IMG/VR virus record: IMGVR_UViG_3300030330_002209
Coordinates: 1-64,000 of that record
DNA: 64,000 nucleotides
DNA from: an uncultured virus (IMG/VR IMGVR_UViG_3300030330_002209)
Taxonomy: Duplodnaviria > Heunggongvirae > Uroviricota > Caudoviricetes
Strand: one strand, 5' to 3'
The notes under the pieces were generated by a model. That model saw only the letters and a program-made list of their open reading frames with translations. It was not told the DNA's origin and did not search any database. Both the position numbers and the translations under genes were made by a program. Every line of letters begins with the position of its first letter. Positions within the stretch are counted from its first letter, which is position 1. Shown one piece after another: positions 2,273 to 53,661 of this stretch.

Positions 2273-3025
2273 TTATAGATAATCAATCACTTGCGAGTGA
2301 TCTAACACTTGTTTTAATTTGTTTATAGCCTGCTTCTTTAGCTGCGAAACACGCACGTAAGAACTAACGCCGCTCATGTTTAAATAATGAGCTATTTCTT
2401 TAGCAGACTGTTTATCACAGTTAATACCGTAGCTTAATCTTATTACGTGATATTCTTTCTCAGTTAAATGTTTCATCATTATACTTATAAGCTTGTAACT
2501 TAAATTTTCTTTTTTCATAGGATCATCAGACTCGTCTGGTATTTGCATAAGCATGTTTTCTTCATCACCTACAGTAGCGTCAATGCTTTGAAATATAGAG
2601 TTGAAGTAAAGCTCTGAGTTTTTGTGGTTTTCAAAGTCACTACGTATTTCATTTAACTTATGCTCAGGTATACGCATACCGCTACGATTAGCATCAGTAG
2701 CACGCCTAATAGCACCACGTATGCGTTTAGCTAAATAAGACTTTATTGTACGTTCAGGATCTTTTGATGCAGCTATTTGTTTCCACTGTATTTTGTCAAC
2801 TGCTTTAATTAAACCAATATGGCCAAATTGTATGCGATCAGACAAAGAAACAACACCATTAGCTGCGTCACTATCTTTAAACTTGCGAGCTATGTTTTCT
2901 ACAAGAGGCATAAACTTAATTATAAGTTCATCTCTTTTGTAATCGTGCCAAACTTTCTTTTCTGGTTGAGATGCTTTAACGTCTTTCTTGTATCTACTAA
3001 AATTATTTTGATTATACTTTTTCAT
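2273..3025 (-). CDS. Phage sigma-70 family RNA polymerase sigma factor
   Basis: Region 2 (LVENIARKF...DRIQFGHIGLIKAVDK) and region 4 HTH (LTEKEYHVIRLSYG...AKEIAHYL...RVSQLKKQAINKLK). Confidence 0.85.
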   Translation of the reverse strand: MKKYNQNNFSRYKKDVKASQPEKKVWHDYKRDELIIKFMPLVENIARKFKDSDAANGVVSLSDRIQFGHIGLIKAVDKIQWKQIAASKDPERTIKSYLAKRIRGAIRRATDANRSGMRIPEHKLNEIRSDFENHKNSELYFNSIFQSIDATVGDEENMLMQIPDESDDPMKKENLSYKLISIMMKHLTEKEYHVIRLSYGINCDKQSAKEIAHYLNMSGVSSYVRVSQLKKQAINKLKQVLDHSQVIDYL

Positions 3026-7012: not shown

Positions 7013-7524
7013 GATAAATTGTATCTATGTCCGTTAATAATTACTTTAATGTCGTCTATTGGTGTAGACTCTGGATTAACAAAGTCACCCCATTCACGCG
7101 CGTCATTATTTATTTTACGCTCTTCTTTCAAACACTTAATAACATAGTCGTTAATTAAGTATGTAGGTTTTTGATAATAGTTTTTTAGTATAAAATTAGC
7201 TAAGTATACTAATCGCTCATCGTAATTAGGTATAAGTATACGCTCTACGTGCTCAAAGTGATAGCCATTTGTACCTGCTGGTTGCTTTTTAGTTTTGTTA
7301 ATTTGATAAGCACTTGAGTTATAATCACTTACATTACGCACATAACCTGATCTGTAGCAAGCAAAACGTAAAGGCTTTGGTATTAAGCTTTGATACATTT
7401 GTTGTATAGGTAGCTCATATACTTGTGTACCGTTTTTCTTTTGTCGTCTTGTTGAGACGTTTTTAATACCGAGCATATCAAACACTTGCAATGCTTCAGT
7501 TGCTGTTGTTACTTTATATTTCAT
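7009..7524 (-). CDS. Hypothetical protein
   Basis: 171-aa ORF directly downstream of the tRNA. Confidence 0.75.
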   Translation of the reverse strand: MKYKVTTATEALQVFDMLGIKNVSTRRQKKNGTQVYELPIQQMYQSLIPKPLRFACYRSGYVRNVSDYNSSAYQINKTKKQPAGTNGYHFEHVERILIPNYDERLVYLANFILKNYYQKPTYLINDYVIKCLKEERKINNDAREWGDFVNPESTPIDDIKVIINGHRYNLS

Positions 7525-7540
7525 ATTTATTTAATTTTAG

Positions 7541-7614
7541 TAGTCGAGACAGGATTCGAACCTGCGACCGTCTGCTTAGAAGGCAGATGCTCTATCCAGC
7601 TGAGCTACTCGACT
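7541..7614 (-). tRNA. tRNA-Arg (anticodon TCT)
   Basis: Cloverleaf AGTCGAG-TA-GCTC AGCTGGATA GAGC-A-TCTGC CTTCTAA GCAGA-CGGTC-GCAGG TTCGAAT CCTGT-CTCGACT-A; CCA not encoded (followed by CTA). Confidence 0.95.
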
Positions 7615-7617
7615 ATA

Positions 7618-7814
7618 AAACGAGGTGGCCAAGTGAGTACACACGGTTTGTTCTCCATATATCGGGCCGGTCCACCGCGCAAGATGAAATAACTTGTTCA
7701 CTGTGGGCTCGCTTCTATATGGATTTTATAAACTTCAACGCGGAAGTTCACCATTAACGAAGTTACATCGCCTCCCCAAGTTATTCCTACACGTCTCACG
7801 CGCCACGCTCGTAT
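7618..7814 (-). ncRNA. Candidate structured ncRNA (~195 nt) immediately upstream of tRNA-Arg
   Basis: GC-rich intergenic segment with nested complementary arms 7621-7629/7802-7811, 7633-7640/7793-7799, 7686-7696/7777-7787 and 7731-7736/7743-7748; G-U wobble extensions work on the minus strand. Confidence 0.6.
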
Positions 7815-7815
7815 A

Positions 7816-8028
7816 TTATCTAAGACAAGTACCGTAACCTTTACGTCTACCTGCTTTATGTAATGCTTTTGCTACTTCTTGAGTAACAATTTGTATTGTG
7901 TTACCAGTTTTATGGTTTATGACTGGAGCTGAAGCCACACGCTCTGTATTACTACAGCTAACACAAGTTTTGTACCCGTATTTTTGCCTAACAGGGTGTA
8001 CGGGCTCACCACATTTACAGTAATTCAT
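7816..8028 (-). CDS. Small zinc-finger protein
   Basis: CKCG...TCVSC. Confidence 0.75.
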   Translation of the reverse strand: MNYCKCGEPVHPVRQKYGYKTCVSCSNTERVASAPVINHKTGNTIQIVTQEVAKALHKAGRRKGYGTCLR

Positions 8029-8062
8029 ATAGTTTAATTTTATTTAATTGGCTTTTGTCATA

Positions 8063-8096
8063 TATATTATCCAATAGTGATTGTATTTAATTTGTA
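8063..8096 (-). promoter_or_regulatory. 34-bp early promoter-like motif, copy 2
   Basis: Plus strand tatattatcc-aatagtga-ttgta-tttaatt-tgta. Confidence 0.75.
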
Positions 8097-8200
8097 ATTA
8101 AAAAATACCAAAGTAACCATATCTTGCAACATTAAACATTATAGATGCTATTATTAGGGTAGCACCACCAACCATTGCTAAATCTGTGTGTTCAAATTTT

Positions 8201-9490: not shown

Positions 9491-9505
9491 AATTGTATTT
9501 TTTAG

Positions 9506-9545
9506 TAGTGTGGGTGGAATCGAACCACCATTAACCGTTCACACT
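9506..9545 (-). ncRNA. tRNA-like minihelix (acceptor stem plus T-arm only)
   Basis: AGTGTG-AACGGTTAAT-GGTGG-TTCGATT-CCACC-CACACT-A, followed by CTA as in the tRNA-Arg. Confidence 0.65.
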
Positions 9546-9775
9546 TAGTCTACTTGGAACTCTCTTGCCCAAGTCGGAATGTTATTTGAGCTAGTATAAT
9601 TACCATACTTAGTAAAACACTCCATTGTTTCTAGTTTCTCTTGATTAAAAGAGTAAACCGCATCGTGGTCATATTTAATGACATCACCTTTTTTGTTAGT
9701 AAATTGAACTACTAGTTCTTTACCAATCATACCTTTTGAGACTACAAATCTCTTTTTTTCTACTACGTTTGACAT
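9545..9775 (-). CDS. Hypothetical early protein, paralog of 11022..11246
   Basis: Shares RFVxSK..IG, FTNKKG, HDAVY..NQEK.ETMECF.KYGNYT.SNN.PT.AREF. Confidence 0.85.
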   Translation of the reverse strand: MSNVVEKKRFVVSKGMIGKELVVQFTNKKGDVIKYDHDAVYSFNQEKLETMECFTKYGNYTSSNNIPTWAREFQVD

Positions 9776-11021: not shown

Positions 11022-11246
11022 TTACAGTGTGAACTCGCGAGCGAAAGTTGGTAAGTTATTACTATTTGTATAGTTACCATACTTTTGGAAGCACTCCATA
11101 GTTTCAAACTTTTCTTGATTTGCAGCATAGACAGCATCATGCTCATAAGTAAATGTTTCGCCTTTTTTGTTAGTAAATGTAATTACTGCATTTTGTCCGA
11201 TTAAAGATTTTGAGATAACAAATCTGTTTTTAGTTAATTTTGTCAT
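11022..11246 (-). CDS. Hypothetical early protein, paralog of 9545..9775
   Basis: High similarity along the full length; directly behind promoter copy 6. Confidence 0.85.
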   Translation of the reverse strand: MTKLTKNRFVISKSLIGQNAVITFTNKKGETFTYEHDAVYAANQEKFETMECFQKYGNYTNSNNLPTFAREFTL

Positions 11247-11471: not shown

Positions 11472-11505
11472 TATATTATCCAAATGGTAATGTAAAAAAT
11501 CTGTA
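11472..11505 (-). promoter_or_regulatory. 34-bp early promoter-like motif, copy 7 (first in transcription order)
   Basis: tatattatcc-aaatggta-atgta-aaaaatc-tgta. Confidence 0.7.
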
Positions 11506-11519
11506 GAATAAAAAGCTGA

Positions 11520-11684
11520 GGTGGGGCCAGGGGCGGGTAAGGGGTGGCCCGGGGAGGGGCTAGGGTGGGCCAGGGTAGGGGCCTAGATGAGGTAGGGAAA
11601 AGCAGAAACAAAAGGGGGGCTGGGTAAAACAGAAACGGTTTTGTAGGGGGAGGGGAGGGGAGGGGGGTAGGGGCAACACCCGGG
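11520..11684 (+). other. G-rich non-coding tract with G-quadruplex potential at the divergent strand switch
   Basis: About 19 runs of 3 or more G, e.g. GGGGGAGGGGAGGGGAGGGGGGTAGGGG at 11646-11673. Confidence 0.8.
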
Positions 11685-11768: not shown

Positions 11769-12992
11769 ATGGCATTTAAAATGAATAAGCCCTCCATGGT
11801 TCAGGGCACTAAACGCTACAGAGACGCTATTAAAGCTATCAAGCTTAATAGAGAGGCTAGTAGTAACAAAACAAAAGAAGGTAGAGCAGAGTCTTCTGCT
11901 TTTCAAATGGCTGAAAAATCTTCTATGAGGTCTTACGCTGAGGCTAAAAAAAGAGATCCTAAGTTAGATGAGCACATTAAAGCTCGTAACGCTGCGGAAA
12001 AAGGTAGTCCTGAGTATAATGCTGCTCAAAACAAAATCAACAAAGCATACGGTAAAGGTCCTACTGATAGAAAAACTACAAAAATGACATCGGAAACTGG
12101 TAAAGGTGGCAAAACTATTGAAACGACTACAGATGCTGCTAAACCCGGAGTAGTTAAAACAAATGTTAAAGACGAAGCTAGAGGTGTTGAGAAAAGAACT
12201 ATGACAAAAGATGATGGTTCTGAAAGAAAAGTAAAGATCAAAGGTAGAAACAGAAGAACAGAAAGAGCTGATGAGTCAAAAGGCCCTAGAGAAAAAGGTA
12301 CTAAGACAAAAATCACAGATCGCGACGCAGAAGGCAATGTTGTAAGAAAAGAAAAAATTAGAAAAGATAAAGAAGGTAAAGTTAAAGGCATAAAAGTTAA
12401 AACTAAAGACGCTGTTACTGGTAATGTTACTAAAACTAAAATAGATAGCGAAGGTAAAAAGACTTCTAAAACTAGAAAAGGTTTTAAAGGTAGCGAAGTT
12501 GGTAAGTTCTTAACAGCTAAAGCAGAAGCTAGAAAAGCTAGAAGAGCTGCTAAAAAAGAAGAAAAGTCTTCAATGACTAAGCCTGATAGAAGAACAATGG
12601 AAAAAATTGAAGATAGTTCAATGACTAAGCCTAAAAGTTCAACGAAAAGAACTCGAAATCCAAATGAAGATCCTACTGGCATAAAATCTTCTATGCCTAA
12701 GCCTAATAGTTCAATGCCAAAGCCTAAGTCTTCAATGACAGCCGCAGAGAAATCGTCTATGAGGGCAGCAACTAAATCTTCTATGATGGCAGCTGAAAAA
12801 ACTCCTATGACTTCTCCAGGTAAGACTAAAAAGAAAAAGAAAGCTAAGTCATCTATGAGAGCTGCTGAGAAGTCTTCGATGACTGCAGCAGAAAAATCTT
12901 CTATGGAATTTAACAAAGAATTAAAAGCAGCTGCTAAAGCTGGTAAATTAGATAAGAACCCTAAATTCAAAGCTGCTGTAATGCGTGGCTAA
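11769..12992 (+). CDS. Highly basic low-complexity protein with MAFKM leader and SSM repeats
   Basis: K/R-rich; 11 SSM motifs; first gene of the plus-strand arm. Confidence 0.85.
   Translation: MAFKMNKPSMVQGTKRYRDAIKAIKLNREASSNKTKEGRAESSAFQMAEKSSMRSYAEAKKRDPKLDEHIKARNAAEKGSPEYNAAQNKINKAYGKGPTDRKTTKMTSETGKGGKTIETTTDAAKPGVVKTNVKDEARGVEKRTMTKDDGSERKVKIKGRNRRTERADESKGPREKGTKTKITDRDAEGNVVRKEKIRKDKEGKVKGIKVKTKDAVTGNVTKTKIDSEGKKTSKTRKGFKGSEVGKFLTAKAEARKARRAAKKEEKSSMTKPDRRTMEKIEDSSMTKPKSSTKRTRNPNEDPTGIKSSMPKPNSSMPKPKSSMTAAEKSSMRAATKSSMMAAEKTPMTSPGKTKKKKKAKSSMRAAEKSSMTAAEKSSMEFNKELKAAAKAGKLDKNPKFKAAVMRG
12560..12910 (+). repeat. Degenerate intragenic tandem repeat encoding (AAEK)SSM-type 7-8 aa units
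   Basis: KSSMPKPNSSMPKPKSSMTAAEKSSMRAATKSSMM...KSSMRAAEKSSMTAAEKSSME. Confidence 0.8.
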
Positions 12993-51320: not shown

Positions 51321-51664
51321 TGAAAGTTTGTATAGCAAAATACTTGTATGCGCTAATCATGATATTAGTGTTTACAGCAGCTACAGCTTTTAGTCAAGTA
51401 AAAGTAATACACTTTAATGCTGGCTGGAACTCAGCAAACGACGTTGAGTGGTTTAATAAACTGTCAGATGCTGGTAAGAAAAGCTTAAGTATAGACGATC
51501 AAAATATACAAAAAAAATATGCTATTGCTATTGTACCTACTATCATTGTGTTTGATGACGGCGAAGAAGTAAAACGTTTTCAAGCAGACCTTAGTTTTAA
51601 GATGGTTGCAACTCGCGAAGAAATACAAGAATATATAGACGAACTTATTATAAGTAAATTCTAA
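51320..51664 (+). CDS. Exported thioredoxin-fold protein lacking CxxC
   Basis: Signal peptide AFS followed by Q; VIHFNAGWN, YAIAIVPTIIVFDDGEEVKRFQ. Confidence 0.75.
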   Translation: MKVCIAKYLYALIMILVFTAATAFSQVKVIHFNAGWNSANDVEWFNKLSDAGKKSLSIDDQNIQKKYAIAIVPTIIVFDDGEEVKRFQADLSFKMVATREEIQEYIDELIISKF

Positions 51665-53661
51665 TGAAGAGATTATTTACATTTTTATTTTTATTTAACA
51701 TTGCTTTTGCTCAGTGTCCTCCAAACACTTGGGGTTTAAATGTTACTATAAACCCTGACCAATATCCACAAGAAACATCTTGGTATATTATGACTTTCTT
51801 TGGTGATACACTTTTAGAAGGCGGGCCATATACTAACATAATAGACTATGAACCACAGTATGCTAGTATTTGTTTACCTGTTGATAGTTTTTACTTTGTA
51901 TTAAACGACACATACGGAGATGGTGTAGCAGGTAGTTTATGGGGTGGTAACGATGGCTCTGTGTACATAGAACAATGTGGTGACACGTTGTGGGAGCTGC
52001 CAGTAGCAGACTTTGGCAATCAAATATGGGACGTAATATATACGTCTGGTTGTCCTCCGCCACCGCCAGTGTTTGGTTGTATGGACTCTAGCTATGTAGA
52101 GTTTGACATAGCAGCTACAGCAGACACAGGTATGTGTTTCACGCCAAAAATATATGGTTGTACAGACTCACTAGCGTATAATTATATAGACTCAGCTAAT
52201 ACAGATATAAATATAGATAGCTGCATGCATGAGTTAGAATTAACAGATTTAGCTGGTAACGGTTGGGCTGGATCTAGTTTAAAGTTAGCGCAAGCTACAA
52301 GTTTAATACCACCGTTTAATTATCAAGACATCGGCACGTACACATTGCTAGATGGTTTTGATACTACGTTTTTCGTAAACTTAGCAGCAGGATATCCTGT
52401 TAGAGCGGTATTTGAAATAACACAGCAGTCAGATTTTACTGCGGTGCAATGCGGTTATAGCTTATACTCTGAAGATTATGTATCTATAGATATTGAAGGA
52501 GGTTTTGTAAATCCTATACCACCATTTTTCCCTATTATAGGTGAACCATATTGTGGTAATACTTGTGTTGAAAGAGTTTATGGCTGCACAGATGTAGCAG
52601 CTTTAAACTACAACGCTTTAGCTAACACTGATGATAGTACTTGTTACTACTTAGTGGGTTGTACAAACCCTATATATTTGGAGTATAATCCTGCAGCTGA
52701 TTATGATGATGGTAGCTGCGCTACGCTAGTTGTTGTTGGTTGCATGGATTCTACTGCTTTTAATTATGATCCAGCCGCCAACGTAGAACTAGCAGGCTCT
52801 TGTATACCTACAGTACTAGGTTGTATGAACGAGTTTGCTTTTAACTATAATCCATTAGCAAACACACCTGATACTTGTATAGCTGTTGTTGAAGGTTGTA
52901 TGGATGCCACGGCAATGAACTATGATTCATTAGCAAATGTAAGCGATAACTCTTGCATTTACTATGCTTATGGCTGTACAGATCCAACGGCATTTAACTA
53001 TGATCCGCTGGCAAACACAGACGATGGTAGTTGTGTAGAAGTAGTTTACGGTTGTATGGACGCAACAATGTTTAATTTTAATCCTGACGCTAACACAGAC
53101 AATGGCAGTTGTATACCTTTTTACTATGGTTGCATGGACAGTACCGCGCTCAATTACGATGACGATGCTAACACTGATAACGGTTCTTGTGTCTATGCTA
53201 TTTATGGTTGCAATGATCCGACTGCTATTAACTACGATCCGCTTGTTAACACACCTGACTCAACATGTGAATATTCTGCTGGTTGCGCTATTGGTGACGT
53301 CTATACTTTACCTAATGATTGTTTTGCTTGGGTTATAGAAGTTGACGAATATTGTTGTGATGTAGCTTGGGACCCTGGTTGTATTAGTTTATACGAATAT
53401 TGTCAAGACGGTTGGTCAGGCCCTACAGATATAATAGAGATTAGATATGGCCTTATTACATATCCAAATCCTACAAGTGATTATATATACATAAATAGTA
53501 GATTAAAAGTTGACATTACAGTCATTAATATGCTGGGGGATATAGTTATATCTAAGAAAAAAGTTAATGTCTTAGATGTCTTTAAATTAACTCCTGGCGT
53601 ATACAATTTAATAATTGAACACGAAAATATAAAAGTTAATAAAAAAATAATAAAAAAGTAA
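51664..53661 (+). CDS. Secreted Cys-repeat protein with T9SS type A C-terminal sorting domain
   Basis: Signal peptide AFA followed by Q; DQYPQETSW domain; 11 GC[TMN][DN]..A.NY...AN.DDGSC repeats; YPNPTSDYIYI...INMLG...GVYNLII...KKIIKK. Confidence 0.85.
   Translation: MKRLFTFLFLFNIAFAQCPPNTWGLNVTINPDQYPQETSWYIMTFFGDTLLEGGPYTNIIDYEPQYASICLPVDSFYFVLNDTYGDGVAGSLWGGNDGSVYIEQCGDTLWELPVADFGNQIWDVIYTSGCPPPPPVFGCMDSSYVEFDIAATADTGMCFTPKIYGCTDSLAYNYIDSANTDINIDSCMHELELTDLAGNGWAGSSLKLAQATSLIPPFNYQDIGTYTLLDGFDTTFFVNLAAGYPVRAVFEITQQSDFTAVQCGYSLYSEDYVSIDIEGGFVNPIPPFFPIIGEPYCGNTCVERVYGCTDVAALNYNALANTDDSTCYYLVGCTNPIYLEYNPAADYDDGSCATLVVVGCMDSTAFNYDPAANVELAGSCIPTVLGCMNEFAFNYNPLANTPDTCIAVVEGCMDATAMNYDSLANVSDNSCIYYAYGCTDPTAFNYDPLANTDDGSCVEVVYGCMDATMFNFNPDANTDNGSCIPFYYGCMDSTALNYDDDANTDNGSCVYAIYGCNDPTAINYDPLVNTPDSTCEYSAGCAIGDVYTLPNDCFAWVIEVDEYCCDVAWDPGCISLYEYCQDGWSGPTDIIEIRYGLITYPNPTSDYIYINSRLKVDITVINMLGDIVISKKKVNVLDVFKLTPGVYNLIIEHENIKVNKKIIKK
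52576..53268 (+). repeat. Nine tandem ~25-27 aa Cys/Asp-rich repeats
   Basis: GCTD/GCMD...NY(D/N)P.AN.DDGSC units. Confidence 0.85.

What the first reader, a model, noticed from the sequence alone, without database searches (positions are those of the whole stretch)
7618..7814. ~195-nt structured ncRNA candidate, possibly 6S-like, abutting the tRNA
Seen: a GC-rich, ORF-free (minus strand) island whose ends pair (CGAGcGUGGC/GCCACCUCG, then GUGAGAC/GUaCUCAC with G-U extension). It encloses an 11-bp helix (GGAAUAACUUG/CAAGUUAUUUC), an internal bubble, an irregular rod capped by GUGAACUUC/GAAGUUUAU and a side hairpin (GCGGU/ACCGU). Wobble pairs favour the minus strand. Its 3' end is a few nt from the tRNA 5' end, so RNase P cleavage would release it. 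Inference: size and rod-with-bubble shape recall 6S RNA. A phage with its own sigma could use it to sequester host holoenzyme. Otherwise it is a new phage RNA motif.
Basis: partly seen in the sequence, partly recalled or inferred. Interest (0 to 1): 0.75.

Follow-up and report, generated by a model that had tools for sequence, protein, structure and literature searches.

The report
Phage RNA scaffold with swappable modules
A marine bacterial virus carries a folded non-coding RNA made of a fixed stalk holding small RNA modules that related viruses swap and stack; it is not the 6S RNA mimic first proposed, and what the modules bind is unknown.

Summary
The structure is real, but it is not 6S-like. 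Window 7617-7814 (minus strand) is the longest of 88 distinct members (62-191 nt, median 86) of an RNA family from marine phages related to Flavobacterium and Cellulophaga phages. It has no Rfam match. All members share a stalk: three short helices and two sequence-conserved internal loops. The stalk covaries (10 of 13 pairs change on both sides in 25 sequences). It carries one or two variable modules, in 31 families at slot 1 and 9 at slot 2. The same modules recur almost letter for letter on different carrier stems, in other scaffolds and in tRNA-shaped RNAs of the same arrays, largely independent of the neighbouring gene's tree. The window copy stacks three such modules, each found separately elsewhere. 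The rod and 'bubble' behind the 6S idea are this cargo, and tRNA-Arg adjacency is rare (2 of 88). The outer frame resembles the acceptor and T stems of the phages' own tRNA-Arg. Best reading (about 0.4): a stable early RNA displaying protein-binding decoy motifs, reshuffled by recombination. Expression evidence is weak, and no host RNA matching the modules was found.

The parts
8063..8095 (-). Repeated promoter-like motif (ACAAAnnAAATACRA-N8-GGATAATATA); nearest candidate promoter for the zinc-finger gene, the RNA, tRNA-Arg and the next ORF
   Evidence: Six copies on the minus strand of the window's early region (11302, 10819, 10368, 10040, 8088, 6540); 262 distinct copies in related loci; promoter role inferred
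7816..8028 (-). 70-aa four-cysteine protein directly upstream; usual 5' neighbour of the RNA arrays; possibly TraR/DksA-like
   Evidence: No Pfam or PHROG hit; nearest named ESM-Atlas cluster is zf-dskA_traR at score 0.88, a lead only; 22 of 66 related loci carry the RNA element
7617..7814 (-). Whole RNA element (stalk plus stacked modules), ending in a U tract
   Evidence: ends inferred from family conservation, not mapped
7802..7814 (-). 5' strand of the outer frame: P1 (7812-7808), bulged C/U/A (7807), P2 (7806-7802); resembles tRNA acceptor stem + position 8 + T stem
7788..7801 (-). 5' strand of the core motif: GC loop (7801-7800), P3 (7799-7795), conserved RNGUGUA junction (7794-7788)
   Evidence: Covariation of P2, P3 and P4 with conserved loops
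7686..7787 (-). Slot-1 cargo; carrier helix P4 7787-7777 with 7696-7686
   Evidence: P4 covaries across 31 cargo families; folds alone at z -2.3
7696..7777 (-).
   Evidence: 22 and 21 identical bases in L509 (L508 is the same), on a different carrier stem
7717..7755 (-). Nested inner module (GUGAACUUC/GAAGUUUAU hairpin with AUAAAAU bulge)
   Evidence: A related sequence is the whole slot-1 cargo in L286 and L281; absent from L508/L509 and from a contig of RNA library X6 (joint 7716 to 7756)
7641..7680 (-). Optional slot-2 cargo on helix P5 (7680-7675 with 7646-7641)
   Evidence: Slot 2 filled in 27 of 88 members, 9 families, compensatory changes in P5; the same cargo in L028, L171, L226
7617..7640 (-). 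3' strand of the stalk: P3' (7637-7633), UUG loop, P2' (7629-7625), P1' (7624-7620), U tract
7540..7614 (-). tRNA-Arg(TCT), no encoded CCA; occupies the array position that tRNA-shaped RNAs take in relatives

Best explanation
The element is a display scaffold for small RNA motifs. (1, shown) A fixed stalk closes both ends of the RNA and holds one or two exchangeable modules, which can be nested. (2, shown) The modules are the units kept in sequence, while their carrier helices change freely. (3, inferred) It is transcribed early, from the repeated promoter-like motif, in one message with small early genes and a tRNA or tRNA-shaped RNA. It is cut out or ends at the U tract, and the paired ends protect it from exonucleases. 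(4, inferred) Modules are exchanged between co-infecting phages by recombination in the 20-30 nt constant flanks, by the phage's own RecE-type exonuclease and Erf annealing protein. (5, inferred, least certain) Each module is a protein-binding RNA motif that acts as a decoy or inhibitor of a host RNA-binding protein (defence sensor, toxin, nuclease or regulator). Host diversity would then maintain a library of modules.
For: Covariation: 96.9% of cells paired against 77.7% shuffled and at most 51% for slid controls; 10 of 13 pairs change on both sides (25 sequences). P4 pairs hold in 30, 28 and 28 of 31 cargo families against permuted means of 12.5-14.5. The same cargo sits on different stems in slot 1, slot 2 and scaffolds D, E, F and A2. 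The window's three modules each occur separately. Cargo family changes 49 times on a 69-row tree of the neighbouring gene (shuffled mean 54.8, minimum possible 23). Five pairs of different loci at least 97% identical in that gene have different cargo. Erf and exonuclease VIII genes lie at 938-2214; no integrase or reverse transcriptase was found. The element lies among small genes of unknown function with repeated promoter-like motifs. RNA-library contigs cover the element with structure-preserving variants, with no cover on most flanking coding DNA (weak).
Against: No binding partner is known. No module resembles one Bacteroidota genome's 23S, tmRNA or RNase P RNA, or six 6S-Flavo RNAs, beyond chance (5 of 328 comparisons at the lowest p, about 5.4 expected). 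Three common modules show only background matches in 251 genomes of G013's family. The core model found 0 of 121 such genomes (positive control). So mimicry of a host RNA by sequence is not shown. Expression rests on a few low-depth contigs from runs chosen with this stretch, which may contain DNA. The true host is unknown, so the wrong genomes may have been searched. The structure was derived from these same sequences, which favours it over the slid controls.
Confidence: 0.4

Rival explanations
1. Cis-acting processing or stability punctuation of the early message: the stalk and U tract are RNase III, RNase P or partial termination signals that tune neighbouring genes, and the cargo matters little.
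For: Paired ends with a U tract in nearly all members. The frame resembles a tRNA top half. 38 of 88 are followed by an ORF, promoter or unclassified sequence.
Against: Cargo is kept almost to the base while moved between unrelated stems, which a plain processing stem does not need. Arrays hold many modules with no gene between them, in non-coding stretches up to about 890 nt.
Confidence: 0.17
2. The modules are tertiary-contact or assembly motifs that let the array RNAs build a larger RNA-only particle, as GOLLD and ROOL do.
For: Many modules are A-rich internal loops on variable stems. In OLE and GOLLD, such conserved loops on variable stems make A-minor contacts (bioRxiv 10.1101/2024.12.08.627333, passages).
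Against: Module content differs freely between close relatives, and some members are a 62-nt stalk with a 15-nt cap. A fixed assembly needs fixed partners. No Rfam match to GOLLD or ROOL.
Confidence: 0.12
3. The modules are aptamers that sponge small molecules such as immune signalling nucleotides.
For: Their size (20-45 nt) and internal-loop anatomy resemble small selected aptamers (recalled, not tested).
Against: No riboswitch family hit; no direct evidence.
Confidence: 0.08
4. Y-RNA-like tether: the bulged terminal stem binds Ro60 and the variable part recruits an effector.
For: Paired ends, a single bulge, a U tail and a variable distal domain. The 5' end UACGAGNG resembles GNCGAAN0-1G (PMC4201824, passages). 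Phage Y-like RNAs exist (PMC12135203, passages).
Against: The motif differs at two of its six fixed positions. No TROVE gene in the phage, and 1 of 151 genomes of G013's family has one. The only YrlA hit is weak (E 4.2) and runs into the tRNA.
Confidence: 0.05
5. 6S-like promoter mimic that sequesters host RNA polymerase holoenzyme.
For: Length about 195 nt in this one copy; the phage encodes a sigma-70-type factor.
Against: No 6S or 6S-Flavo hit. Length and bubble are not conserved. The comparative fold is a three-way junction, and the distal loop is largely one-sided.
Confidence: 0.04
6. Single-stranded DNA hairpin or recombination site of the integron attC type, rather than an RNA.
For: Imperfect palindrome with an extrahelical base and a variable tip; the plus strand folds about as well.
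Against: No tyrosine recombinase. Neighbouring modules carry tRNA T-arm loops and real tRNAs. G-U outnumbers A-C only 4 to 1 in P4 (weak).
Confidence: 0.04

Closest known systems
T4 RNAC and RNAD (small RNAs of the T4 tRNA region)
   Same: Small phage RNAs made from a tRNA region, role unknown (PMC3014915 and PMC9697503, passages).
   Different: The passages read describe two fixed RNAs classed as late. Here a scaffold family holds dozens of exchangeable, nestable modules in a region that looks early.
GOLLD and ROOL RNAs
   Same: Phage-encoded structured RNAs often near tRNAs, function unknown; GOLLD has a conserved and a variable part (bioRxiv 10.1101/2024.12.08.627333, passages).
   Different: Those are single folds of 600-800 nt or more that form cages. 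This is 62-191 nt, has no Rfam match to them, and is built from mobile modules.
Bacterial and phage Y RNAs (YrlA, Yrl1/2)
   Same: A paired-end bulged stem plus a variable domain; tRNA mimicry nearby.
   Different: No Ro60 gene nearby, the recognition motif is not met, and the element has no tRNA-like D and T loops.
6S RNA and 6S-Flavo
   Same: Only the length of this one copy and a partly rod-like shape.
   Different: No model hit, branched fold, length and bubble not conserved.
Phage RNA decoys (pseudo-ToxI of phage phiTE, RNA anti-CRISPRs); recalled, not read here
   Same: Proposed way of working: small phage RNAs that occupy a host defence protein.
   Different: Those copy a host RNA sequence and occur as repeats. 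No host copy of these modules was found, and they sit on a shared scaffold.

Membership tests
6S RNA (RF00013) / 6S-Flavo (RF01685) | Match to the family covariance model | tested here: not met
   No hit at E<=1 in the genome; none at E<=10 in 7400-8100
6S RNA (RF00013) / 6S-Flavo (RF01685) | Conserved length and unbranched rod with a two-sided central bubble (feature recalled; model lengths 187 and 108) | tested here: not met
   62-191 nt, 1 of 88 in 170-200 nt; three-way junction; the bubble is exchangeable cargo
6S RNA (RF00013) / 6S-Flavo (RF01685) | Binds sigma-70 holoenzyme and templates product RNA | not testable with these tools
   Needs biochemistry
Y RNA / YrlA | GNCGAAN0-1G near the 5' end (PMC4201824) | tested here: not met
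   The family has UACGAGNG
Y RNA / YrlA | Ro60 (TROVE) gene within about 4 kb on the same strand | tested here: not met
   0 of 1 in the own genome
Y RNA / YrlA | tRNA-like D and T stem-loops inside the RNA | tested here: not met
   Not in the element; T-arm hairpins occur only in neighbouring modules
GOLLD / ROOL | Rfam model match and length of several hundred nt | tested here: not met
tRNA / tRNA-like RNA | Acceptor stem stacked on a T stem | tested here: inconclusive
   The frame is 7 nt + 1 nt + 5 bp. In L264 and L189 a sister frame has the same inner five acceptor pairs and the same T stem as the tRNA-Arg of L045 and L047. Noticed after the fact, no formal null.
tRNA / tRNA-like RNA | T loop, D arm, anticodon | tested here: not met
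   ARAGORN and Rfam call only 7540-7614
Phage RNA decoys of host defence RNAs | Sequence copy of a host RNA | tested here: inconclusive
   No match above background for 3 modules in 251 genomes, or for the core in 121; true host unknown, most modules not searched
Integron attC-type cassette | Linked tyrosine recombinase | tested here: not met

The most novel reading that the evidence does not exclude
These marine phages keep a combinatorial library of natural RNA aptamers. tRNA-derived and other scaffolds display dozens of small motifs that are stacked, nested and exchanged by recombination. Each motif neutralises a host RNA-binding defence or regulatory protein, or a signalling molecule. This would be an RNA-only counterpart of the variable anti-defence protein islands of phages.
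Probability: 0.35. Interest if true: 0.92.

Novelty: categorically new. Interest (0 to 1): 0.77.

Why it matters
The small RNAs beside phage tRNAs (T4 RNAC and RNAD) still have no known role. This family gives natural swap experiments: one constant scaffold with about 40 cargo families whose boundaries are defined to the base. Each module can be synthesised and used as bait, so the question becomes directly testable. If the modules are decoys, they reveal a layer of RNA-based counter-defence and name the host proteins that phages target. The scaffold is also a natural RNA display platform.

Tried and rejected
Rfam searches gave only tRNAs above chance: the window, 7400-8100, 11 related loci, 16 further loci, and L508/L509.

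Cultured-phage BLAST hit only the tRNA, or nothing real.

74 loci came from a 5' pattern; 7 held the element. Of 80 loci listed from a loose core pattern (119 stretches, scan cut off), 2 were clear members, both from contigs already held, and 2 were weak.

Model R1 misses the window copy itself because its cargo is too long, so R1 negatives do not cover long members.

A DNA search of 301 genomes with an array gave mostly AT-rich noise. Its one recurrent hit was the T arm and acceptor end of host tRNA-Leu matching scaffold E.

No antisense target of any cargo stood out in the window (best E 0.03).

The RNA runs had small word shares (0.09-0.12), mostly explained by the tRNA. Runs X9 and X14 covered only the tRNA; 4 of 24 runs were laid. 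No habitat or expression level is claimed.

Literature searches found no description of this family. The sequence-bearing supplements of the IMG/VR candidate-RNA catalogue PMC10690425 could not be read, so parts of these modules may be listed there as unnamed candidates.

The constrained fold had a mis-registered helix and is superseded. An early note calling position 7807 a mismatch was wrong; it is a bulge.

Full report
Setting. The window is most of a 67,243-base virus record. It encodes a sigma-70-type factor, an ATP-dependent ligase, Erf, exonuclease VIII, GroEL, a ribonucleotide reductase, terminase and portal. All 87 cultured-phage records that match its terminase are Flavobacterium, Cellulophaga, Tenacibaculum or Maribacter phages, plus one unclassified phage. 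The only exact hit of the element among bacterial genomes is a 63-kb contig in a Sphingobacteriales assembly (L287) with the same phage gene order. A Bacteroidota host is inferred, not shown.

Observation. Folding energy alone is modest and does not choose the strand. Rfam finds only the tRNA-Arg.

The family. Of 66 loci found through the upstream 70-aa gene, 22 carry both ends of the element. Pattern scans added more. In all, 151 of 286 loci then held carry a full element; many are repeat fetches of the same contig. They give 88 distinct sequences of 62-191 nt, median 86. The window copy is the longest; its two identical copies (L198, L254) are the same phage over 1.3 kb. The ends are almost invariant. 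The 3' invariance is partly forced by the exact patterns, but it also holds in the protein-anchored loci. Position 7807 is a bulge: C in 44, U in 33, A in 10, one undetermined, never G.

Covariation. Between the ends lies slot 1, closed by helix P4. Five rows with altered junctions were dropped, and the 53 remaining cargo sequences fell into 31 families by my similarity threshold. The first three P4 pairs are formed in 30, 28 and 28 of 31 families, with all four Watson-Crick types at each of the three positions; permuted means were 12.5, 14.5 and 12.5. Slot 2 is filled in 27 of 88, with 9 families and compensatory changes in P5. More distant phages keep the core (GC loop, 5-bp P3, RNGUGUA, cargo, AUCUWA, P3', UUG) inside other outer frames, with P3 changed to GAAGG/CCUUC, GCGAG/CUCGC or GAGGG/CCUUC. 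On a 25-sequence alignment, 96.9% of cells pair against 77.7% in shuffles and at most 51% in slid controls, and 10 of 13 pairs change on both sides. These counts ignore relatedness, and the structure came from the same sequences.

Modularity. The same cargo appears nearly letter for letter on different carrier stems: in slot 1, in slot 2, and in other scaffolds of the same arrays, including tRNA-shaped RNAs that keep an acceptor stem and T arm but carry cargo in place of the D and anticodon arms. The window copy is a stack. Its bubble module (22 + 21 identical bases) sits on another stem with a 3-nt cap just before a tRNA-Met in L508 and L509, phages with 73% terminase identity to this one. 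Its inner hairpin is the whole cargo in L286 and L281, and its slot-2 cargo recurs in L028, L171 and L226. Cargo tracks the neighbouring gene poorly. Median gene identity is 0.84 for 136 same-cargo pairs and 0.81 for 2,279 different-cargo pairs. There are 49 changes on a 69-row tree (L208 dropped as misaligned), against 54.8 shuffled (lowest of 300 shuffles 50) and 23 as the minimum possible. So a slight phylogenetic signal remains, and the tree rests on about 200 bases that may themselves recombine.

Origin of the frame. The outer frame is 7 nt, one unpaired base, then 5 pairs. In a sister frame (L264, L189) the inner acceptor pairs, the 5-pair stem and the next two U residues equal those of the tRNA-Arg in related phages (L045, L047). 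I infer descent from a tRNA top half whose T loop was replaced by cargo. This was noticed after the fact and has no formal test.

Expression. Four of 24 listed runs were laid. Two covered only the tRNA. X12 holds two short contigs: one matches 7721-7803 with small indels on both strands of one stem and a different 5' flank; the other matches 7787-7850 and continues into another known cargo. X6 holds a contig that skips 7717-7755. Coding DNA beyond 7866 and below 7543 had no cover. These are low-depth contigs of relatives from runs chosen with this stretch, so they are a weak hint only.

What it is not. It is not 6S and not a Y RNA. It is not generally tied to tRNA-Arg and has no linked integrase or reverse transcriptase. 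The modules are not detectable sequence copies of host RNAs: 5 of 328 comparisons reached the lowest p value with about 5.4 expected. Three modules matched 1, 4 and 23 of 251 genomes with up to two mismatches, at background level, and the core model matched 0 of 121. These genomes are the family of G013, chosen for its 6S-Flavo hit and only inferred to be Flavobacteriaceae.

Mechanism. Shown: a covarying scaffold with sequence-conserved, mobile, nestable modules. Inferred: early transcription from the repeated promoter-like motif, release or termination at the U tract, and shuffling by short-homology recombination. Least certain: the modules act as protein-binding decoys against host factors (0.4). 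Rivals are cis-processing signals (0.17), RNA self-assembly (0.12), small-molecule sponges (0.08), Y-like tether (0.05), 6S mimic (0.04) and DNA hairpin (0.04).

Literature. I read passages of PMC4201824, PMC12135203, PMC3014915, PMC9697503 and bioRxiv 10.1101/2024.12.08.627333, and one part of five of PMC10690425. Its sequence supplements were unreadable and may list parts of these modules. Eight searches found no description of the family; subscription journals are mostly not covered. 6S anatomy and the decoy precedents are recalled. Earlier AI notes describe similar cassette arrays in unrelated phages. I did not check them; they suggest a wider phenomenon but are not evidence.

Verdict. This is a real and apparently undescribed modular phage RNA system. 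The architecture is well supported, and the function is open but directly testable.

Noticed in passing
window 9503-9545 (-): 41-nt tRNA top-half minihelix: 6-bp acceptor stem, 10-nt linker, full T arm, no D or anticodon arm. Related forms occur in several loci.
   Followed up: partly
window 6540, 8088, 10040, 10368, 10819, 11302 (-): Six copies of a conserved bipartite promoter-like motif ahead of small early genes; a candidate target of the phage sigma factor at 2273-3025.
   Followed up: partly
window 7816-8028 (-): Conserved 70-aa four-cysteine protein, usual 5' neighbour of the RNA arrays; weak likeness to TraR/DksA zinc fingers.
   Followed up: partly
L046:3941-4830, L066:3606-4472, L045:3584-4226, L048:3850-4505: Largely non-coding arrays of 640-890 nt in more distant relatives, with many further module types and tRNA-shaped RNAs; none hit Rfam.
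   Followed up: partly
L259:21-215: Scaffold E, a 142-212 nt tRNA-shaped RNA with two cargo slots; its T arm and acceptor end resemble host tRNA-Leu(GAG).
   Followed up: partly
L189 and L264: Two copies of the focal scaffold with different cargo in one array, separated by a sister frame.
   Followed up: no
window 11500-11680: GC-rich island with long C runs on the minus strand, at the divergence point between early and late gene blocks; similar islands in relatives. Possibly an origin or genome-end signal.
   Followed up: no
window 9545-9775 and 11022-11246 (-): Two paralogous small early genes (76 and 74 aa) with no Pfam or PHROG hit; a hairpin or minihelix follows each.
   Followed up: no
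window 51664-53661 (+): 665-aa phage protein with a type IX secretion C-terminal sorting domain, in line with a Bacteroidota host.
   Followed up: no
window 11769-12992 (+): 407-aa lysine-rich protein with short C-terminal repeats and no family hit.
   Followed up: no
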